Shown here piece after piece: positions 3,802-40,360 of a stretch of DNA of 64,000 bases (the first letter of the stretch is position 1; every line of letters begins with the position of its first letter). The translations under genes and the position numbers were made by a program. Source of the stretch: Perna viridis (lineage: Eukaryota); NCBI GenBank assembly GCA_037379345.1, contig CM074513.1, positions 56,275,195 through 56,339,194 on the forward strand. Direction: 5' to 3'. The notes under the pieces were generated by a model, which was given only the letters and a program-made list of their open reading frames with translations, was not told where the DNA came from and made no database searches.

Positions 3802-3873
3802 TAAAAGTTTGATGATCTAGGACATGGTTCATGGTAGTGTATAGACATTGTATTTTTGTTTAACTCTCCTTAG

Positions 3874-12665: not shown

Positions 12666-13470
12666 TCATGACTTCTGATTCTGAGGTGTTTCATTTGGAT
12701 TTAAGTTTAGATCTAGTACTTCTTTCATTAGCGGCTGTATAACTTCTGGATTTACTTTCAAGAGAACATGAGAGTGTTCCTCATTTAAGTTACGAATATC
12801 AGTCAATTTCATCAGCAGCTTTGGGTAAATACTGCGGACTATTTGAGGAGGGTACCTAGATTCTAGGTAACGTAACAGTAACAAGGCATATTTGTCTTGC
12901 TCTTGAGAAATATAAGCTTTGTCCGTAACATTTGGCCGATCAGGGGAAAATAGAGAAATCACAAGCAGAAGCATCAGCATTGTTTCATCCGCTTTCAAGT
13001 CAATGGCAAGCTGTCTTGTGAACTTCATGTGTTCCTCAAATAAATTGGGACCTTCAGCCATTCTCATCTGCTCTGTTGTCATAGCATGATCTGAGTTATC
13101 TAATGGATCCAGCCACTGTTGTTTCTCCTTATCAAATGTTATAACTGATCGTAAGATCAGAAGCTCAATGCTACCTCCTTTAAGTAAGCTGATTTGATCT
13201 AACTGAGAGAGAGCCTTGAATGACTTAATTTTCTTTGCCATGTCAATTACTCTACGCACACTGAGCTCTGCAATGTTCACAAGATCTCCAAACGATGGTC
13301 CTTCCTTCCTGACAGGAGGTTCCATGCACACTTCCAGGGACTGTCTGTAAGCAGATACAACCTCACCAATGAGGTATTCTTCATCAGGCTCCAATGACCT
13401 CATCTTATACTGCGTAGAACTGACCACACCTGACTGTGGACTCAACTTTGATGTTTCTTCCCTCATTTTT
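12666..13470 (-). CDS. HR96: NR1J/HR96-like nuclear receptor, terminal exon (hinge + whole ligand-binding domain)
   Basis: Acceptor ctcttttag|A AAA ATG at 13470 (phase 2). Contains LBD signature VIDMAKKIKSFKALSQLDQISLLKGG, LFSPDRPNV, KLTDIRNLNEEH and AF-2 QPLMKEVLDL. Stop TGA ends at 12666. Symbol denotes the NR1J group, the exact paralog is not determined. Confidence 0.93.
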
Positions 13471-14012: not shown

Positions 14013-14147
14013 GAAGTATTTTAAAAATTATATCTCTTTTGCATAAATGTTTGAAAGTGGTAATTGAGCTATGTTAAGTTTACCGCATACTGTCTTCATG
14101 TTTTACTTTTTGGAACACAAGCCCAAAACTTTTAATTTATGTTATTT

Positions 14148-14185
<38 letters not shown>

Positions 14186-14342
14186 AGAAGTATTTTAAAA
14201 ATTATATCTCTTTTGCATAAATGTTTGAAAGTGGTAATTGAGCTATGTTAAGTTTACCGCATACTGTCTTCATGTTTTACTTTTTGGAACACAAGCCCAA
14301 AACTTTTAATTTATGTTATTTTTATATATATATATATCCAGA
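14013..14342. repeat. Near-perfect tandem duplication (period about 174 bp), each copy ending in (TA)n
   Basis: gaagtattttaaaaattatatctc...aatttatgttattttt(ta)n tccaga begins at 14013 and at 14187. Copies differ mainly in TA length. Confidence 0.9.
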
Positions 14343-14377
14343 TTTTTAGACCTGGTACTGTTTTAGTCCCATCATAC

Positions 14378-14544
14378 CTATTTTCTTCTATTCTTTGTCT
14401 TTTTCTGGTCTTTTCTTCCTCTGTAAGGATGTATTCTTTTCTCATTCCAATCTCAAAACATTTCCTAAGTCTGCAACGTTTACAGAACCTCCTGTTTGAC
14501 ACATCCATTTTACATTTCTCTTCATAAGGACATTTGAAGTAGTC
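14378..14544 (-). CDS. HR96: NR1J/HR96-like receptor, second zinc finger exon
   Basis: tttcag|GAC TAC...AAT AG|gtatga, 167 nt, phase 0/2. Encodes DYFKCPYEEKCKMDVSNRRFCKRCRLRKCFEIGMRKEYILTEEEKTRKRQRIEEN(R). Confidence 0.95.
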
Positions 14545-30188: not shown

Positions 30189-31876
30189 TTCAGCAAATTT
30201 TAAACTTCTTTGTCAAACCACTAAGGAAGTATTTATACATCCAAGTATCATTTTTTCCTGCCTCCTTAATATCAAACTGAATATTCTTCTATAAACATAT
30301 GAAATCTAAAGTCATATGGAGGGAAATAAGATAAAAAGTTATTGGCAGCGCTGGAAATGTATAGATGAATATCAAGTAAGATTTCAGTTTAAAATATTTT
30401 CATAAGTTTGAATTGCCAAAGACACACTTTAAGTCATTACAGCAGTATTCCAGAAATTTTTTTATCAATATAATGAGAATAGATATGGTGAATATTTCTG
30501 AGAGACAACAACCCTACCAGGATAAAAATGTCAGCCAAAGGCCACCCAATGGTCTTCAAAGAATGATGAGGAAACCAATACAATGGACAATCCTATCACA
30601 GTCATATATAAGAACAAAACTGGTAAATACAGGGTTGCCATACCTAAAATTTACACTAAATGTAACAAAAAAACAAGATATTAACTTAGCATGCTCCCTG
30701 CTATCGACACAAATCATCTATACATGGCAGAGATCCATACCACCCTCAGTATCAACACCTACTTGTTTTTCACATATTACTTTTTAATTTTTCTTTAATA
30801 TGATATCTACAAAATTTCATTAAAATTTACAATCATGTGAACAGAATAAATTCATTTTATTAGAAATTTTCTTCAGATGTGATTATTTTTATGGAATCTA
30901 TCGAATCTTTTTTTATAATTACATCATTTAAGGATGCAAAATCATCTCCCATAAAGTCAAATTCCTACTCAAATTTCATTGATTCTGATACACAGAACTT
31001 AAATGTCAAATCTCAATCAATGTCTATTCCCTTCATAATACTACTTGGTACATTAATGTTGATTTCTGAGTGGCTAAAAAACCTTTAAATTTTATGTCCT
31101 AACCAGATTTTGCAGGAAAATGAGATTTTAATAATATTGCACTTCTCAATGGGACAAAAAGTCACAAAAAAATCCTAGGACATCTCCATGATCAACCATT
31201 GTACAATAATGAATTTCCTTTAGGTGCATTTTCTATTAAATGTTCTCATAAAATATGAACGGGTAATCTATCAATATTATGACAAAGTACTGCTGAACAC
31301 TGAATATTTGTTTTTCTCTACAATATGGTGTATTAAGTCAACAAAATTCAAGTTTGGAAAGTAAAACTTCTCATGAAACATATCAGTGTAAACCTTAGGT
31401 AAGCATAAATGTCATAAATATTCCAAAAATTTTCTTCAAAAAGAGATCATAAATAACAGGTGAAAATTTGAACAAAGTTTGAAAGCTTTAAAGAAGGAAG
31501 AACCATATTTGTACAACAGATTTAAGGACGGCCACACTGAACCACTGATTAATTCATAAAATATTAATACAAATAATTAATAACCAGAATAGTAAAATAA
31601 TGTAAGAGAAGAATGGAAAACAAAATATATACTGTAATATATACAGTCATTTATAATTCATAATAAAGAGGATAGTCGAATTAAACACGATACATAATGT
31701 CAAAGTTTAATTAAAGCAAAATTTACTGAAAGCTATTAATTACCTGACTGCATGACCAAAGAAAACCTGTCTGACAAAAAACTTTATCTCACACAATTTT
31801 GAATGGAAAAAAAACTTATTAAATTCTTAAATAGGTTTCAAACATGTAAGAAAGTTATTAATATTTATTAACTTAC

Positions 31877-32091
31877 CACTTGACAAATAAATCTCCAAAC
31901 AAACAGGTGAAAACATCACTTGTTTGGTCAATCCTTGGCCTCATATAGGGGCTATAGGGGTTAGGGTGGTGATTCATGGGGGGAGGGGGTGGTCCTCCAT
32001 ACCCTCCCATGTGATGGTGATGACCAGGATGATGTCCCGGGTGCCCATGGTGTATAGGGCCATGTCCATGCCCGTTATAGTCCGTGAACAT
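31877..32091 (-). CDS. HR96: Alternative first coding exon (His/Gly/Pro-rich A/B domain) of the NR1J receptor
   Basis: ATG at 32091 with an in-frame TGA just upstream. Locally GC-rich. Ends GTC AAG TG|gtaagt (phase 2), joining 18470 to give ...GDLFVKC|FEDSNSNG. Total CDS 1401 nt, 466 aa. Confidence 0.82.
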
Positions 32092-32273
32092 AACGATAAT
32101 TCAATATCAACTTCCTTTGTTAAGAAAAACTTGTTGTAATCCGCATTGAATAAAAAGTCAATCTAACTAACACAATAAAATCAAAGTTTCTTCCTGTGTG
32201 AGATTCTCTGCAACAATGTCATTGCTAATGTGCGAATTAAAAATAAATGTGGTGTAGATACACACATTAAACT

Positions 32274-32296
32274 AGGACACAGTTCAGCTTGGTTCA
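32274..32296. promoter_or_regulatory. Putative nuclear-receptor response element (DR1+DR4 composite)
   Basis: AGGACA-c-AGTTCA-gctt-GGTTCA, about 190 bp upstream of the ATG at 32091. Confidence 0.5.
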
Positions 32297-32389
32297 CACT
32301 TCACTCATAAATGGGGTTTATACAGTACTCAATAACTGTTTTAGTAAACATAGCATGTAGACTGGGTCGTTTGGTGCATTTCTCTCCTT

Positions 32390-32680
32390 TCAACCAATCA
32401 AATGATGTAAATCCAATAAATGACAAGAAAACTCCGCCCCCAGGACATTTAAGGACATTGTAAATCTGAAGGTTTTTACAGGAGATATCTTAATTTTCTA
32501 ATCTGTCAAATCAGTTATTGGCTCTTGATTATGTTGATGAAGGATATCAAAATTCAAAAATTTGCATTTACAATGATAAAATAGACACAGGCGCTGACAT
32601 CTGATTCAATGTTTCCACTTGGAGAAATTTAAAAGGTAAGTATATAATCTTTTTTCTACCCCATGGCAATCAGCCAATGG
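32390..32680. promoter_or_regulatory. Putative internal promoter for the His-rich isoform
   Basis: CCAAT at 32394, 32413 and 32674, ATTGG at 32517, GC box ctccgccccc at 32432-41 and AGGACA-ttta-AGGACA at 32442-57. Confidence 0.5.
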
Positions 32681-34351
32681 TCATTGTTTAAATATTTACA
32701 CCATGGCTTAGGTCACCTAGTCCAGCTATATAGTAAACATTAATAATATTGTATATTATCTTTAGTTACATATGACATTAATATTTTCACCTATATATTG
32801 ATATCTATACATAACTATATTTTTATCTAATCTTTATAAATTATTTGGTATTGATTATGTATAAAGTTAACTTACATTAATGAATATACTTAAATTAAAA
32901 ACATTGTAGTATTTGAAATTCTGAGAGTGAGTTAGCATGAATATTCACATGCATCATAAAAAGATTATCATTCCAATCAACCTTATTTCTTAATAAACCA
33001 CTTGACACAATTAATTAAATATATAAATTTTACAAATTTTAGTCAATTTTAAATGGACTAAAACTAAAATGCAAAAAGCATAATATAAACTATACTTTCT
33101 TTATACGAAAAAGTAAAATTTTTGAAACACATTGAAAGAAATGAATGAAAATAATGTTTGGGTGATATTCTAAGAGAAGAATATCATTGAATAAATGCAG
33201 TACATTTTACATGAATTTTAATTTTTGTAAAATTGTGAGCTACACTTTCTTAATTAATATTCCTTAAAAACAGGCATAATAATTTATATTTAAAAAATAT
33301 TTTATTGATAATATCTTGAACATTTTGTTTATAGGATTCTAAATTATTTGGTTACCTTAATTAGTTAAAAATAAATAAAACCAAAAGATTTTTTTAAAAA
33401 ACTTATAAAACAAGGACACATAAACATATTTTAATTATTTTCCTTGTAAAAGAAATAGGAATACTGGTGATGAACTCAGTGCAAATCACGGAAGAATCAA
33501 CTCTTGTACATGCAAACTTCAAATCCAAATTTGTGTAGAACTTTGAACAGTTGATCTTAAAATGCCACTTTCAAAATTATTTTGACAAAATCTTGAAATA
33601 AACAAAAACAGGTTTGTAAACTTAAATAGTGTGGTTGGACTAGCATCAACAAACAATACTGCATATGTTTTTTTCCCTCAGATGCAACTACCAAACTTTA
33701 TAATAAACTTCACTCTTAAAAGTGACTTATGTGCACCATGTGTAAATTTGAGTGAAGTCTAAATAAATCTCCTATGTTATCATGGCACAAAGATGTAAAA
33801 CCTGATGGTACAAACCCTAAAACTCCCAACTATCTTTATACATTCTTACACCACCAAAAAGAATTGACTATACATGCACACACATACTATACAAATACCA
33901 GTATGTAACCATCTTTTTGATCCAAGGTAGTGTATTTTTGAAACGATCCAATTTAAACTGTTAATTCCAAAGAATCTACTATGAGCATCATACGTACCAA
34001 AATATGAAAAATATTATTCTGTAACAAATTTTATGACATTAAACTCAACAATCAGCCAGTTATAACTATAACAAAACATTTTGTCCATGTGAAATACCAA
34101 AAAGAAACATAAAAGGAGAGAGATTATTGTTGTCGTAACCTAAGACTTTGGTCTCCACTGATCAGGAGTATACACCAGTATATGGATAATGATGAACACA
34201 TGCACTTTTAAATATTATATTTTCCCCCTATAGAATTTTCCAGTGAAGTATTTCCTGTAACCTGTCATTCAGTACAATTATCAGCCTTCTTGACAGTTTG
34301 TAATGTAATTCAAATGTACTTTTCATTTTAATACATATATATATATATATA

Positions 34352-34631
34352 TATAGAAGGGTCTGAAAAATTCCCAACGATGTTAGAACTGTCAAATTTG
34401 CGAAGCAAATTTTTGTCGTTCCCTCCGCGGGACTCGAACTTGTACCGCTGTGACATCTATGGCAACACCGCCTGCACTAAGTCCAGTGCTCTAGACCATT
34501 AGGCCAGCTGGACTTAGTGCAGGCGGTGTTGCCATAGATGTCACAGCGGTACGAGTTCGAGTCCCGTGGAGGGAACGACAAAAATTTGCGACAGTTCTAA
34601 CATCGTTGGGAATTTTTCAGACCCTTCTATA
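34352..34631. mobile_element. Head-to-head fold-back pair of a tRNA-derived SINE
   Basis: Arms 34352-34486 and 34508-34631 are reverse complements with a 21-nt loop. The minus-strand copy has A-box TGGCCTAATGG, B-box GTTCGAGTCC and a (TA)n tail at 34335-34355. Confidence 0.85.
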
Positions 34632-34894
34632 AGTTTACGTTATCTTCCCTGTATCAATTTGATCCGATGGAGCAGTGTAGTGAATAGAGTCGTCACATTC
34701 TGGACATTGTATATATATTTACAAGACATTGCCTCTAACAGAACTAATACTCCCCTCAGCCTAAGGATATACAATTTAAATTGGACACAATTTTTATGGT
34801 GGATAGACTACACACTTTTGACACACAATTTGCTGCCATTTCTAAAACACCCAACTCCAAACTGCCATCAGTGTTTTTTTTGGGGTGAGAACAC

Positions 34895-35842
34895 AATAAC
34901 AGAATATGACTATTTCCTGACAATATGCACGTCGTTAAGGCGGAGTTGTGGACAATGCATCAGACACAGTTTGTTGAAAAATGCTTAAGCTCCAACAGCC
35001 GTCATTTCTACAATTTTAGTCCAAACATAAATTCTTGACAATATGCACATCTCCATGTGGTAACCTATAGGCTAAAAACCACTAATTCCACTTCCCATAG
35101 GCTTCTATGCTAATTTCACAATATTCAATGGCTTCTCTGGACTTTACCTTAACTTTAACCTGCAGAGGACTATATATCAGCATGATTCTACATATGTCAG
35201 CTCACAATCCTCAGAATGGCATGTGGGGTTAGCAGACTTGCAGTGCAGTACTGGTCACCGGAAGTGAAGGGTCTATAAATAGCATGGGAAATCCAAGTGT
35301 TTTCACAAGATAGGGGTATATTTAAAAATCATTATGGAGATTAGACTTCACATCACAAGAAGCAAAATGCACCTATAAAATGTACAGAAATGTTTTTCCT
35401 TTCAGAAACTGTTTAAATTTTTTAAATAAGATGAGAACTTTTTTCACAGCACTATGAGGAACAGGGGTAATTTCTGCGTAGGACTATTTTTGCGTACGTT
35501 CCAAATGCTCATTGGTTGAATTGGTGGTCTGTAACCTATACCCCATTAAGTTTCATAACAATCTTGCCGGTCATTAAGGAGGTGTTGTGGACAACAAATG
35601 AGACCAAGTTCTGATGAAAATTGCCGAAGTTCAACAGCCATCATTTCTACAAATGTAGTCCAAACATAAATTCCTGACAGTATGTACATCTCCATATGAT
35701 TACATTACATCCCACATAGTTCCATAACAATGCTGCAAACTGCTTAGAAAATACCTTGGACAGACGGACAGAATGACAGACAGGGTGTAACCTATGTACC
35801 CCGAAAGTTTGTTCGGGGGCGGGGTGGGGGGGTTTATAATAA
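34895..35842. mobile_element. Helentron-type non-autonomous element (degenerate)
   Basis: Internal repeat caacagcc.tcatttctaca.....gtccaaacataaattc.tgaca.tatg.acatctccat at about 34993 and 35632. ggacagacggacag microsatellite, terminal hairpin ccccgaa-agtttg-ttcgggg, then tataat. Confidence 0.55.
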
Positions 35843-35939
35843 TATACACACTTCTTTTAACTAAATGAGTCAACATTTCTTTCTTTATCTTTTTTTTGAG
35901 TTCCTTATCTGACCACTAAGCTGTTAATGTACCTTATTA

Positions 35940-36618
35940 TCACTGAGACCTTAGCAGTGACTGTCAGTTATCTTGACAACACTGTGTCAAATTGAGAACA
36001 TAGAAGTGACTGACAGTTACCTGGACAACACTGTGTCAAATGTTGCACTGAGAGATTAGTAGTGACTTACAGTTAGCTAGAGAACCCTGAGACTAAATAG
36101 AAATATTGAGAGCTTAGTAGTGACTGACAGTTTCCATGACAACACTGTGTCAAAAAAGATACATTGAGAGGTTAGTACTGAATGATAGTTACCTGGACAA
36201 CATAATGTCAAAATAAGACAGTGAGAGTTAAGTAGTGATTAACACTTACCTAGACAACACAATGTCACAATAAGATACACAGAGATCTTAGAAGTGACTG
36301 ATAATAATCTTAACAACACAAATGTCAAAATAAGATATACACAGAGTTTAGTAGTGTCTGACAGTTACCTACCTAGAAAACACAGTGTCAAAATAAAATG
36401 CACTGAGAGCTTAGAAATGACTGACAGTTAACCAAAACAACACAAGTAAAAATAAGATACATTGAGGGCTTAGAATTGACTGAATTATACATCAGTGTCA
36501 AAATATGATACACTGAGAGCTAAATAATGACTGACAGTTAACTAGACAACTTAGTGTCAAAATAAGATACACTGAGAGCTTAGAAGTGACTGATAATAAC
36601 CTTAACAAAACAATGTCA
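35940..36618. repeat. About 58-60-bp satellite, left part
   Basis: Unit cactgagagcttagtagtgactgacagttacctggacaacacagtgtcaaaataagata, about 12 diverged copies. Confidence 0.88.
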
Positions 36619-37603
36619 AAAAAAAAAAAAACCTGTCATTTTTCCCTGTCAAGAACAATAACTCTTATAAGAAAGCGTCTAACAAATTTTATGCCTGAAG
36701 ACTTTTGTAGTCCTAAAAATAAGGATCATTTCAGCTATTGAAAGAATTTGGCTAAACCTAAAGGTTTTGGAGATGTATGCAAATAACTACTGTCTGACTC
36801 CTATGTTCTATTTTTAGTAACAGTGGCCATGTTTTTCAACGGATCAAAAAACCCCAATAAAATTCTATGTGGGATACCCCAAGTTGTGTAAAATAGTGTC
36901 AGAGGAGATTTTGAAAGAAATAACATAAAAAATAGCAAAAAACTTTGAAAAAGGGTAATAACTCCAACATGGCTTAATAGATTAAAATGAAAATTTAACC
37001 GCAGATAGATCTCATCATGCTAAACACTTTTATCCCTTTCAGAATGAGCTAAACCTAACCGTTTTGGAGATATATGAGAAAAACTATTGTCTAACCCCTA
37101 TGTTCTATTTTAAGTAAGAGCGGCCATGCTTTTTGACAGATCAAAATCCCCACAACAGTTCTATGCATGATACCCAAAGGAACATTCATACCAAGTTTGG
37201 TTCCAATTGGTCAAGTAGTGTCAGAGGAGAAAATTTTTGAAAGAAATAACATTAAAAATAGCAAAAAAACGTAGAAAAAGGGCAACATCTCCAACATGGT
37301 TTAATAGATTAAAATGAAAATTTGACCACAGATATACCTCATGTCAGAATTGGCTAAACCTAACCATTTTGGAGATATATGCGAAAAACTACTGTCTGAC
37401 CCCTATGTTCTGTTTTTAGTAATGTTTTTTGACGGATCAAAAATTCCCGCATCAGTTCTATGCAGGATACCCCAAGGAAAATTCATACCAAGTTTGGTTC
37501 CAATTGGTCTAATTTTGAAAATTTGTTAACGATGACGACGGACGACAACAGATGCCAAGTGATGGCAATAGCTCACATGGCCTTCGACCAGGTGAGCTAA
37601 AAA
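36619..37603 (-). mobile_element. Helentron-associated element with about 300-bp internal tandem repeats, inserted in the satellite
   Basis: Three copies of gctaaacctaa..ttttggagat.tatg...ctgtct.acccctatgttct (about 36751, 37048, 37353). gacgacggacgac microsatellite and terminus gctcacatggccttcgaccaggtgagctaaaa. Same family as 9307-9847. Confidence 0.78.
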
Positions 37604-37900
37604 GGCACAGTGAGAGTTAAGTAGTACTGAAAGTTACCTGGACAACACAGCAGGGAAATAAGATTCACTGGGAGCTCAGAGGGGATTTACAATTACCTGG
37701 ACAACAGGGTCAAAATAAGATACACTGAAAGCTTAGTAGTGACAAACAGTTACCTGGACAACAAAGCGCTTAAATAAGATACACTGAGAGCTTAGTAGTG
37801 ATGGACAATTACCTAGACAAAACAGCTGGGAAATAAAATACACTAAGTGCATAGCTGTGGCAAACAGTAACCTAGACAACACAGCAGGGAAGTAAAACAC
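37604..37900. repeat. About 58-60-bp satellite, right part
   Basis: The same unit resumes in register after the insertion (cagtgagagttaagtagtactgaaagttacctggacaacacag). Confidence 0.85.
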
Positions 37901-39029
37901 TGGAGCAGTAAAATTACAGACAAAATAGTTTCCAATTATATCGATATACATTGGAAAACTTAAAATTGACAAAACATTACATAGAGAGATATACACATGC
38001 TTTGAAAAGCAGAGGTTAGACAAATAGACAGACAAAAAAAACTACTTCTATCTAACAATTCTTTACTATAGGGCTTTAAGAAACTGGTGGGTATATGTTA
38101 TCAAGCACGGCAATCTACCTTCAGAGAAGTCTTACATAAACTTTTTTTAAAGCAATATTTGTGTCATAACAATTAAAAAGTGAAATAACATGCACTGGCT
38201 CAATCTGTCTTATCTTGTCTAATATAATGAGACTTAGCACTTTTCCTCTCATAGATGTATCATTGTGTTAAGTAAGGAAGTTCTCTACATGAAAATTGCC
38301 AATCATGGTTTCAATTAAATGATGGCATCTTCATAGTTTTGTCTCATAATGTACTTTTATTCACAATATGAACTGATCAGTTTTCTGTAATTATATATTT
38401 ATCATCTCCAGCCACTCTTTGATTGAAAACAGTTTGAATAGTAAAACAAAATGATTAAAGTCTATTAACATGACCATAAAAAAGTACACAAGTTGTTTGT
38501 TCCTAAATGACAAATGGTAATTTGTTTTCTTCTTAATTTGCTTTGGTGTTAGTTTTACAGATCAAATCATTGTACATGATCAGTGATTAACAATATATAG
38601 GAGCTTAGAAGGCAAATACTACTTATTCTGCTATTTGTCAAATGACTGTGATAGAACGCAGTTGTACTTTATAAGGTCATTGGGTAAATACCTTTTTGAC
38701 ATAAAGAATACTGTGACTAGTAATTACACCAAGTCACTGCACTGTATATACTTTAAAATCTCTGAAAACATAAGTCTACTTTCACTTAAAATTCAAAACA
38801 CTTAAAGCATCATGTGTGCATCTATGGCCTATACCTCCAATTTTGGCATTACTTTAAACAAGAGAAGGTTATAGTGTTTCTAAGGAAACTGTGTTAAAAC
38901 AACTCAGAGGTATAATATTGACCAATGCTGTTTTATTTCTAGGGTATGTCAACAAAGCCAGTAATATTGTAGTATTAGAGGACATTGTCTAACAATGGCT
39001 GTGGACAACATCAACAACAGTGTTTCTAA

Positions 39030-40360
39030 GGTAACCCAGTCTTATCAACCTTTTGGAAAACAACTAAAGTCTATAGGCAAACCTGTCTAGTTTTTAACGT
39101 AACCCAGTCTCATCAACCTTTTGGCAAACAACTAAGGTATCCCACTCTCATCAACCTTTTGGCAAACAACCAAGGTAACCCATACTCATCAACCTTTTGG
39201 CAAACAACTAAAGTCTATAGGCAAACCTGTCTAGTTTTTAACGTAACCCAGTCTCATCAACCTTTTGGCAAACAACTAAGGTATCCCACTCTCATCAACC
39301 TTTTGGCAAACAACCAAGGTAACCCATACTCATCAACCTTTTGGCAAACAACTAAGGTCTATAGGCAAACCTGTCCATTGTTTCTAAAGTAACCCTGTCT
39401 CATCAACCTTTGACAAACAACTAAGGACTATAGGCAAACTTGTCCACTGTTTTTAAGGTAACCCAGTCTAATCAACCTTTTGGCAAACAACTAAGGATTA
39501 TAGGCAAACTTGTCCATTATTTGTAAGGTATCCGTCTCATCAACCTTTTGGCAAACAACTAAGGTATCCCACTCTCATCAACCTTTTGGCAAACAACCAA
39601 GGTAACCCATACTCATCAACCTTTTGGCAAACAACTAAGGTCTATAGGCAAACCTGTCCATTGTTTCTAAAGTAACCCTGTCTCATCAACCTTTGACAAA
39701 CAACTAAGGACTATAGGCAAACTTGTCCACTGTTTTTAAGGTAACCCAGTCTAATCAACCTTTTGGCAAACAACTAAGGATTATAGGCAAACTTGTCCAT
39801 TATTTGTAAGGTATCCGTCTCATCAACCTTTTGGCAAACAACTAAGATAACCCAGTCTCATCAACTTTTTGGCAAACAACTAAGGACTATAGGCAAACTT
39901 GTCCATTGTTTGTAAGGTATCCCAGTCTCATCAACATTTTGGCAAACAACTAAGGTCTATAGACAAATCTGTCCATTGTTTGTAAGGTATCCCAGTCTCA
40001 TCAACCTTTTGGCAAACAACTAAGATAACCCAGTCTCATCAACTTTTTGGCAAACAACTAAGGACTATAGGCAAACTTGTCCATTGTTTGTAAGGTATCC
40101 CAGTCTCATCAACATTTTGGCAAACAACTAAGGTCTATAGACAAACCTGTCCATTGTTTGTAAGGTATCCCAGTCTCATCAACCTTTTGGCAAACAACTA
40201 AGGTAACCCAGTCTCATCAACTTTTTGGCAAACAACTAAGGACTGTAGGCAAACTTGTCCATTGTTTTTAAGATAACCCAGTCTCATCCTTTTGGCAAAC
40301 TACTAAGGTCTATAGACAAACTTCTCCATTGTTTGTAAGATATCCAAGTCTCATCATCAA
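39030..40360. repeat. Composite two-monomer minisatellite (A = 38 bp, B = 31-32 bp)
   Basis: A = ggtaacccagtctcatcaaccttttggcaaacaactaa, B = ggtctataggcaaacctgtccattgtttctaa, interspersed in higher-order blocks. Confidence 0.93.

What the first reader, a model, noticed from the sequence alone, without database searches (positions are those of the whole stretch)
32274..32457. Candidate autoregulatory response elements at the receptor's internal promoter
Seen: AGGACA-c-AGTTCA-gctt-GGTTCA (DR1 plus a perfect RGTTCA DR4) at 32274-96, and a second DR4-spaced AGGACA pair at 32442-57 next to a GC box. Known: NR1I (PXR/CAR/VDR) and DAF-12 recognise direct repeats of RGTTCA-type half-sites. Inference: a feedback circuit in which the distal isoform, or another NR, induces the His-rich isoform, giving a ligand-triggered isoform switch.
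Basis: partly seen in the sequence, partly recalled or inferred. Interest (0 to 1): 0.7.

Follow-up and report, generated by a model that had tools for sequence, protein, structure and literature searches.

The report
Receptor-type DNA sites on mussel promoter
A mussel toxin-sensing nuclear receptor gene has a rare cluster of receptor-type DNA repeats where one of its two mRNA forms appears to start, back to back with a spliced non-coding RNA, so a bound receptor would likely act as a feedback brake on that form, but binding, conservation and direction are untested.

Summary
The motifs are exactly where reported and are rarer than chance: a perfect RGTTCA-DR4 occurs once per 1.18 Mb (614 in the genome), and 31 of 20,000 promoter shuffles give one at DR3-5. 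The gene is the mussel NR1J1-beta (HR96-like) receptor, with two mutually exclusive, conserved N-termini. RNA changes the picture. The His-rich mRNA's contigs end at 32299 in two studies, so the DR1/DR4 composite lies at about +4 to +26, inside the transcript. A spliced, non-coding RNA starts about 170 bp away on the other strand, and the AGGACA pair lies at -30 to -15 of it. Self-binding is uncertain: the two tested receptors with this ESCKA P-box use AGTGCA, which is absent here. Published mRNA responses to two agonists go in opposite directions. Paralogue and P450 loci show no matching elements, and cross-species conservation could not be tested. Verdict: probably a real receptor element (about 0.7), most likely damping initiation; the ligand-triggered isoform switch is unsupported. 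A new member of a known kind.

The parts
32274..32296 (+). Composite of three receptor-type half-sites: AGGACA-1-AGTTCA (DR1) and AGTTCA-4-GGTTCA (perfect RGTTCA DR4); about +26 to +4 of the His-rich mRNA, -198 to -176 of the divergent RNA
   Evidence: function inferred
32442..32457 (+). AGGACA DR4; -30 to -15 of the divergent RNA's 5' end, -158 to -143 of the His-rich mRNA's
   Evidence: function inferred
31877..32299 (-). First exon of the His-rich NR1J1-beta isoform (208-nt 5' UTR with three short upstream ORFs; ATG 32091; ends TG|gtaagt, phase 2)
   Evidence: RNA contigs of X9 and X13 span 31877-32299 and splice to the DBD exon; 86% identical to the Mytilus X1 N-terminus. The 5' end is a contig end, not a mapped cap site
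31879..31917 (-). Invariant DVFTCLFGDLFVK block with two overlapping FxxLF motifs, found only in the His-rich isoform
   Evidence: 13 invariant residues in 12 of 12 aligned sequences, mussel to chiton; binding role untested
32300..32471 (.). 172-bp core between the two RNA 5' ends: TATAAA (32317-22, minus), Fox-like TGTTTAC (32344-50), CCAAT boxes (32394-98, 32413-17), GC box (32434-39)
32472..32635 (+). First exon of a divergent spliced RNA without a long ORF (donor GT 32636), antisense to the distal isoform's intron
   Evidence: contigs of X9 and X13 and opposite-strand reads of X22; longest ATG ORF 31 aa in the 656 nt examined; no Rfam match
38943..39434 (+). Second exon of the divergent RNA (acceptor AG 38941-42), running into a tandem array at 39028-40356; end coordinate assumed from contig length
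53934..53971 (-). Distal coding exon YLYDEATKMENLS, shared by upstream-promoter isoforms; phase 2, in frame with the DBD exon
   Evidence: further upstream exons in L023 and L024
18257..18470 (-). DBD exon 1 with P-box CESCKA
14377..14544 (-). DBD exon 2 (approximate ends)
12666..13470 (-). Hinge and ligand-binding domain exon (approximate 5' end)

Best explanation
The three-half-site DR1/DR4 cluster lies over the apparent start of the His-rich mRNA of the mussel NR1J1-beta receptor, and is likely a working nuclear-receptor element whose occupancy would damp initiation of that isoform. Shown: the motifs, their rarity, the gene's identity, two alternative N-termini, the RNA 5' end near 32299 and a divergent spliced RNA. 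Inferred: a DR4-reading dimer binds, most likely an RXR heterodimer with NR1J1-beta itself or another NR1 receptor, with DR1 binders able to compete. Sitting at +4 to +26, it would hinder the initiation complex. The result would be a feedback rheostat on one promoter, not an on-off switch between isoforms. The AGGACA pair is a weaker candidate and by position belongs as much to the divergent RNA.
For: Rarity: 1 per 1.18 Mb, about 4e-4 per 500 bp and 2e-3 over five promoters; shuffles 31 and 32 of 20,000. Position: contigs from two studies end at 32299 and X22 reads fade there, 3 bases from the element. Sites inserted at +25 cut initiation 2-5-fold for human Sp1, NRF1 and NFY (PMC11269187 passages). 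[quoted passage not shown] The helix-10 stretch YPKLLMKLTDIRNLNEEHS aligns closely with VDR's, which is compatible with RXR pairing (role of that helix recalled). Curcumin activates the Mytilus beta LBD (PMC13467592) yet lowered this gene's mRNA in toxin-exposed mussels (PMC8402306; its primers match this gene exactly).
Against: No binding or conservation data. The tested ESCKA receptors use AGTGCA, absent here. Prorocentrum lima exposure raised this mRNA at 48 h, and okadaic acid is a 3.2-fold agonist of the beta LBD, which fits induction better than a brake; the assay cannot tell isoforms apart. No RGTTCA-DR4 in 20 of 20 ten-kb stretches upstream of P450 exons, and no enrichment of pairs there. 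No clear equivalent at the three paralogues (180 kb). The 5' end rests on two contig ends and 21 raw reads; no pile of read starts was reported, and a few minus-strand reads lie further upstream at 32353-32596. The positional rule comes from human non-receptor factors, and receptor elements downstream of a start can activate (Xenopus TR-beta; position recalled).
Confidence: 0.4

Rival explanations
1. Chance: the half-sites are incidental letters of a core promoter and 5' UTR, picked out because they sit in a receptor gene.
For: No genome-wide enrichment of the pairs over controls; relaxed pairs are common (any RGKDCA pair in 2,488 of 20,000 shuffles); a similar three-pair cluster in L007 is not evidently at a promoter; patterns were chosen after seeing the site; nothing matching at P450 or paralogue loci.
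Against: Three pairs within 184 bp at two RNA 5' ends; 0 of 20,000 shuffles gave three DR1-5 pairs; both relaxed DR4s of the 64 kb window are here; all five half-sites share one orientation.
Confidence: 0.3
2. One reading: ligand-bound NR1J1-beta (or another receptor) activates the His-rich promoter through these sites, shifting output toward that isoform.
For: This gene's mRNA rose at 48 h of P. lima exposure; okadaic acid activates the Mytilus beta LBD 3.2-fold; TR autoinduction through a promoter element is established in Xenopus (passage); DR4 of RGTTCA is the PXR/CAR-type geometry (recalled).
Against: The rise was reported at 48 h only and for a shared exon; the agonist curcumin lowered it; the isoform is present in 4 of 4 RNA runs laid (exposure unknown); the site lies inside the transcript; ESCKA receptors tested prefer AGTGCA.
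Confidence: 0.2
3. Direction switch: the sites mainly control the divergent non-coding RNA. A receptor on the composite would activate it from -198 to -176 while blocking the His-rich start; the RNA runs antisense through the distal isoform's intron and could interfere with it.
For: The divergent RNA is spliced and seen in 3 of 4 runs; the CCAAT boxes (-78, -59) and GC box (-38) are well placed for it; all half-sites are on its sense strand.
Against: Divergent transcription from promoters is common (general knowledge); the RNA is about 3.5-6.5 times lower in contig depth than the mRNA and ends in a tandem array; nothing shows that it reaches the distal exon at 53934.
Confidence: 0.1

Closest known systems
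Oyster thyroid hormone receptor autoregulation (CgTR on CgDR5; PMC4692385, passages read)
   Same: Bivalve NR1 gene with a direct-repeat element in its own promoter; repression by the receptor.
   Different: CgDR5 is an imperfect DR5 about 1 kb upstream and was tested by EMSA; here a perfect RGTTCA DR4 plus DR1 sits on the start of one isoform and is untested.
C. elegans DAF-12 elements and self-regulation (PMC3140985, passages read); mite TcHR96h element (PMC10501649, passages read)
   Same: Same receptor group (NR1J); direct repeats of hexamers; DAF-12 reported to regulate its own gene.
   Different: Their half-sites are AGTGCA-type (DR5, or adjacent repeats); here AGTTCA, GGTTCA and AGGACA in DR4 and DR1.
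Vertebrate isoform-promoter feedback: Xenopus TR-beta-A TRE (passage), RAR-beta2 DR5, human LXR-alpha DR4 (the last two recalled)
   Same: Receptor element at one of several promoters of a receptor gene.
   Different: Those are ligand-activated and experimentally mapped; this one overlaps the apparent start site and shares a 172-bp core with a divergent non-coding RNA.
Mytilus galloprovincialis NR1J1-beta (PMC11204112 passages; PMC13467592 abstract, introduction, first part of results)
   Same: Orthologue: the beta primers encode MRKEYIL and ELPQKS, matching this gene's hinge and the end of its 95%-identical Mytilus hit P0002.
   Different: Studied as GAL4-LBD fusions; PMC13467592 has 0 occurrences of 'promoter', 'response element', 'isoform' or 'RXR'.

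Membership tests
NR1J (HR96/DAF-12) receptors | ESCKAFFR in the first zinc finger | tested here: met
   CESCKAFFRR in the DBD exon; called group-unique in PMC4070562; 93 of 93 homologues with the finger carry CESCKA
NR1J (HR96/DAF-12) receptors | C4 DBD plus LBD closest to NR1I receptors | tested here: met
   Pfam PF00105 and PF00104; best PDB hits VDR, then PXR, DAF-12, LXR
NR1J1-beta paralogue | Hinge and C-terminus of the beta clade | tested here: met
   Published beta primers encode MRKEYIL and ELPQKS; three further paralogues in G000; no tree was built
DR4 nuclear-receptor response element | Two RGKTCA hexamers in direct repeat, 4 bp apart | tested here: met
   AGTTCA-GCTT-GGTTCA, 32281-96; the AGGACA pair has one mismatch per half-site to RGKTCA
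DR4 nuclear-receptor response element | Specific binding by a receptor dimer and effect on transcription | not testable with these tools
   needs EMSA, DAP-seq or reporter assays
DR4 nuclear-receptor response element | Conservation in orthologous promoters | tested here: inconclusive
   no mollusc genomic relatives held; metagenome scans gave 0 loci and 1 spurious locus; the lay of possible other-species RNA runs did not complete
DAF-12/HR96-type element | AGTGCA-type half-sites | tested here: not met
   none in 31800-33000; AGTTCA differs by one base, GGTTCA and AGGACA by two
DAF-12/HR96-type element | DR5 spacing of the high-affinity DAF-12 site | tested here: not met
   spacings here are 1 and 4; DR5 from PMC3140985
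Autoregulated receptor promoter | mRNA responds to the receptor's own ligand in one direction | tested here: inconclusive
   literature only: up with P. lima at 48 h, down with added curcumin, both agonist-linked; shared-exon assay
Bidirectional promoter with divergent lncRNA | Opposite-strand RNA 5' ends within 1 kb; spliced, no long ORF | tested here: met
   ends at 32299 (minus) and 32472 (plus); GT-AG intron 32636-38942; longest ATG ORF 31 aa in 656 nt

The most novel reading that the evidence does not exclude
The cluster is a receptor-operated direction switch. NR1J1-beta on the composite shuts the start of its own FxxLF-bearing isoform and fires a divergent non-coding RNA into the intron of the distal isoform, so ligand sets which N-terminus is made. 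The mollusc-wide invariant FxxLF pair of the His-rich form would dock on the receptor's own coactivator groove, as in the androgen receptor (recalled), giving the two isoforms different activity. It would also be the first DNA element assigned to a molluscan NR1J in the searches made.
Probability: 0.07. Interest if true: 0.75.

Novelty: new member of a known kind. Interest (0 to 1): 0.38.

Why it matters
Bivalve NR1J1 receptors are the proposed sensors for algal toxins and pollutants, but in the papers read they were tested only as GAL4 fusions, and the searches made (open-access library only) found no DNA element for them. This site is a concrete, cheap probe for what an ESCKA-type mollusc receptor binds and whether it needs RXR. 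The two conserved N-termini also mean that published shared-exon qPCR of 'HR96' cannot see isoform changes. If the site proves functional, the finding adds one more receptor feedback loop to a well-known class.

Tried and rejected
Conservation: degenerate pattern of the invariant exon block in JGI metagenomes, 0 hits; protein scan, 1 locus of 352 candidate stretches, which reads as an unrelated, bacterial-looking ORF (L002); the lay of four small-share RNA runs (X15, X16, X18, X19) did not complete, so those runs count for nothing. Paralogues: 60 kb around each of three gave scattered pairs (a DR2+DR1 triple about 30 kb upstream of one DBD exon, an AGGACA-T-AGTTCA DR1 9 kb upstream of another, a DR5 and relaxed DR4 about 1 kb upstream of the third), with no start-site data: inconclusive. 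Putative targets: 20 ten-kb stretches upstream of P450 exons (chosen from 93 matches, mostly CYP2-like by eye) hold 0 RGTTCA-DR4; the one AGTGCA-4-AGTTCA and the one GGTTCA DR5 lie in first introns. The published CYP3A4 primer was not found in G000. A second perfect RGTTCA-DR4 lies in an upstream intron of this gene (L022:4982), but one more in 90 kb has P = 0.07. RNA structure as cause of the repeats: 5' UTR z = -0.32; no Rfam match. Repeat origin: 31850-32650 has one match in the genome. The TATAAA at -23 to -18 is too close to 32299 for a canonical TATA box. FxxLF docking: the complex predictor was not available; a single-chain model of the Mytilus orthologue P0122 shows the block as a helix (57-73) at pLDDT about 30, which says nothing either way; Atlas search blank. 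Shostak 2004 and Bethke 2009 were not held; my recollection that DAF-12 also binds AGTTCA repeats found no support and stays unverified. Earlier findings of this scan: none bear on this.

Full report
Observation. Both motifs are present as described: AGGACA-C-AGTTCA-GCTT-GGTTCA at 32274-32296 and AGGACA-TTTA-AGGACA at 32442-32457, both on the plus strand. A GC box lies at 32434-32439 and CCAAT boxes at 32394 and 32413. The stretch 31850-32650 has one match in the 723-Mb genome G000.

Chance. The window holds 96 RGKTCA half-sites and one DR4 of them, this one; both relaxed (RGDDCA) DR4s are in the flagged 184 bp. Genome counts against reversed controls are 614 vs 599 for RGTTCA-DR4, 245 vs 333 for AGGACA-N-RGTTCA, 108 vs 113 for AGGACA-DR4 and 12 vs 2 for the DR1+DR4 triple. 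The pairs are thus not enriched genome-wide but are rare per site: 4e-4 per 500 bp for the DR4, 2e-3 over five promoters. Of 20,000 dinucleotide shuffles of 32050-32550, 31 had an RGTTCA DR3-5, 528 any RGKTCA pair, 32 three relaxed pairs of any geometry and 0 three DR1-5 pairs. These classes were chosen after seeing the site. One other three-pair cluster exists in the 344 kb scanned (L007), and 6 of the 11 other triples, inspected, were repeats, coding or unremarkable DNA. I put the chance of a functional receptor element at about 0.7.

The gene. On the minus strand lie two zinc-finger exons with P-box CESCKA and an LBD exon, 95% identical to a Mytilus HR96-like protein. ESCKAFFR marks NR1J (PMC4070562 passage). 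Published Mytilus NR1J1-beta primers encode this gene's hinge and its orthologue's C-terminus, and three more paralogues exist in G000. Two N-termini splice in frame to the DBD exon: the His-rich exon (ATG 32091) and a distal exon at 53934-53971 with further exons upstream. Among 93 homologues with the first finger (isoforms counted separately), 17 carry the His-exon block, 36 the distal exon and 0 both. The block DVFTCLFGDLFVK is invariant in 12 of 12 aligned sequences from mussels, oysters, scallops, limpets and a chiton.

RNA. Four RNA runs were laid on 31560-33360. All four cover the His-rich exon. Contigs of X9 and X13 (different studies) span 31877-32299, splice to the DBD exon and end at 32299; X22 reads fade in the same place. 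In X13 the exon heads a 4,486-nt contig. Taking 32299 as +1, the composite lies at +4 to +26. Limits: contigs cannot prove a start, only 21 raw reads were laid, no pile of starts was reported, and a few minus-strand reads (X21) and a thin contig (X9) lie at 32350-32596. A second RNA runs on the plus strand from about 32472-32482, in X9, X13 and X22. It splices through a GT-AG intron (32636-38942) into a tandem array, has no ATG ORF over 31 aa in the 656 nt examined and no Rfam match. The promoter is therefore bidirectional, with a 172-bp core; the AGGACA pair is at -30 to -15 of the divergent RNA. Two further RNA-guess runs held next to none of the words, which is no proof of absence.

Who binds. 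The passages read give AGTGCA-type DR5 for DAF-12 (PMC3140985; PMC4434323 says its array motif agrees) and AGTGCA-AGTGCA for mite HR96h (PMC10501649). No AGTGCR lies in 31800-33000. AGTTCA is one base away, and RGTTCA DR4 is the PXR/CAR geometry (recalled), so self-binding stays open at somewhat under even odds. Other mollusc receptors read such repeats: oyster TR bound DR0-DR5 and pairs with RXR (PMC4692385). The LBD's helix-10 region aligns well with VDR; RXR pairing was not tested. PMC12856210 cautions that the P-box is not the sole determinant.

Which direction. In human cells, Sp1, NRF1 and NFY sites at +25 lowered initiation 2-5-fold, with YY1 the exception (PMC11269187); receptors were not among the passages seen. 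Oyster TR represses its own promoter when unliganded. A published mussel 'HR96' qPCR pair matches this gene's LBD exon with no mismatch (13202-13393, 192 bp against 194 stated). That mRNA rose at 48 h of Prorocentrum lima exposure and fell when curcumin was added (PMC8402306). Okadaic acid (3.2-fold) and curcumin both activate the Mytilus beta LBD (PMC13467592). Two agonists with opposite effects on a shared exon do not establish a loop of either sign.

Against. No RGTTCA-DR4 in 20 of 20 ten-kb stretches upstream of P450 exons, and no enrichment of other pairs. No clear equivalent at three paralogues. Cross-species conservation, the most telling computation, stays open: no mollusc genomes are held, two metagenome scans gave nothing usable and the lay of possible other-species runs did not complete.

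Mechanism. Best reading (0.4): a DR4-reading dimer on +4 to +26 damps initiation of the His-rich isoform, as a feedback or cross-regulatory rheostat. Rivals: chance (0.3), ligand-driven induction as first proposed (0.2), and control of the divergent RNA as a direction switch (0.1). Motifs, gene, isoforms and both RNAs are shown; binding, binder, sign and ligand dependence are inferred.

Comparison and novelty. It works like known receptor feedback elements (oyster TR, DAF-12, Xenopus TR-beta; RAR-beta2 and LXR-alpha recalled). It fails the DAF-12-type half-site and spacing tests, so it is not filed as a DAF-12/HR96 element. Searches of the open-access library showed no DNA element or promoter study for a molluscan NR1J; subscription journals were not searched. 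Papers were seen as passages only, except PMC13467592 (abstract, introduction, part 1 of 2 of results); PMC9787296 and PMC8363021 passages added only the ESCKA P-box note. No supplements were read; those of PMC3140985 could hold further DAF-12 half-sites. Verdict: new member of a known kind, interest 0.38.

Noticed in passing
window 31879-31917 (minus): The His-rich exon ends in an invariant DVFTCLFGDLFVK block with two overlapping FxxLF motifs, kept from mussel to chiton while the His/Pro stretch before it is lost in limpet and chiton; recalls the androgen receptor's N-terminal FxxLF (recalled). Docking on the LBD is untested.
   Followed up: partly
window 32472-32635 and 38943 onward (plus): Divergent spliced non-coding RNA from the same promoter, antisense to the distal isoform's intron, with exon 2 running into a tandem array (39028-40356).
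   Followed up: partly
window 32092-32299 (minus): The 208-nt 5' UTR has three upstream ATGs (28, 13 and 8 codons), all closing before the main ATG; possible translational control.
   Followed up: no
L022:4982 (G000:C3:56354176): A second perfect RGTTCA DR4 (AGTTCA-ATCT-AGTTCA) in an upstream intron of the same gene; P = 0.07 on its own.
   Followed up: partly
L023:9341 and L024:8247: Further upstream coding exons (MFSLFSKQIE; DTDLELQAAALGLDSV) matching Mytilus isoforms; the gene spans about 90 kb and likely has several promoters.
   Followed up: partly
G000:C3:55982731 (L015-L016): Another NR1J paralogue lies about 310 kb away on the same contig and strand, with a DR5 and a relaxed DR4 about 0.8-1.2 kb upstream of its DBD exon.
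   Followed up: partly
window 3819-3831: AGGACA-T-GGTTCA DR1, like the promoter's, about 8.8 kb downstream of the receptor's stop codon; context not worked out.
   Followed up: no
window 14068-14250: A near-duplicate of the sequence following DBD exon 2 (about 174 bp apart, flanking an AT run), seen in the translations.
   Followed up: no
L047 (621 bases before its end) and L054: AGTGCA-containing pairs near P450 genes (AGTGCA-4-AGTTCA in a first intron; two DR3 ending in AGTGCA about 3 kb upstream of an ATG), closer to the DAF-12/HR96 half-site than the flagged element; not enriched over background.
   Followed up: partly
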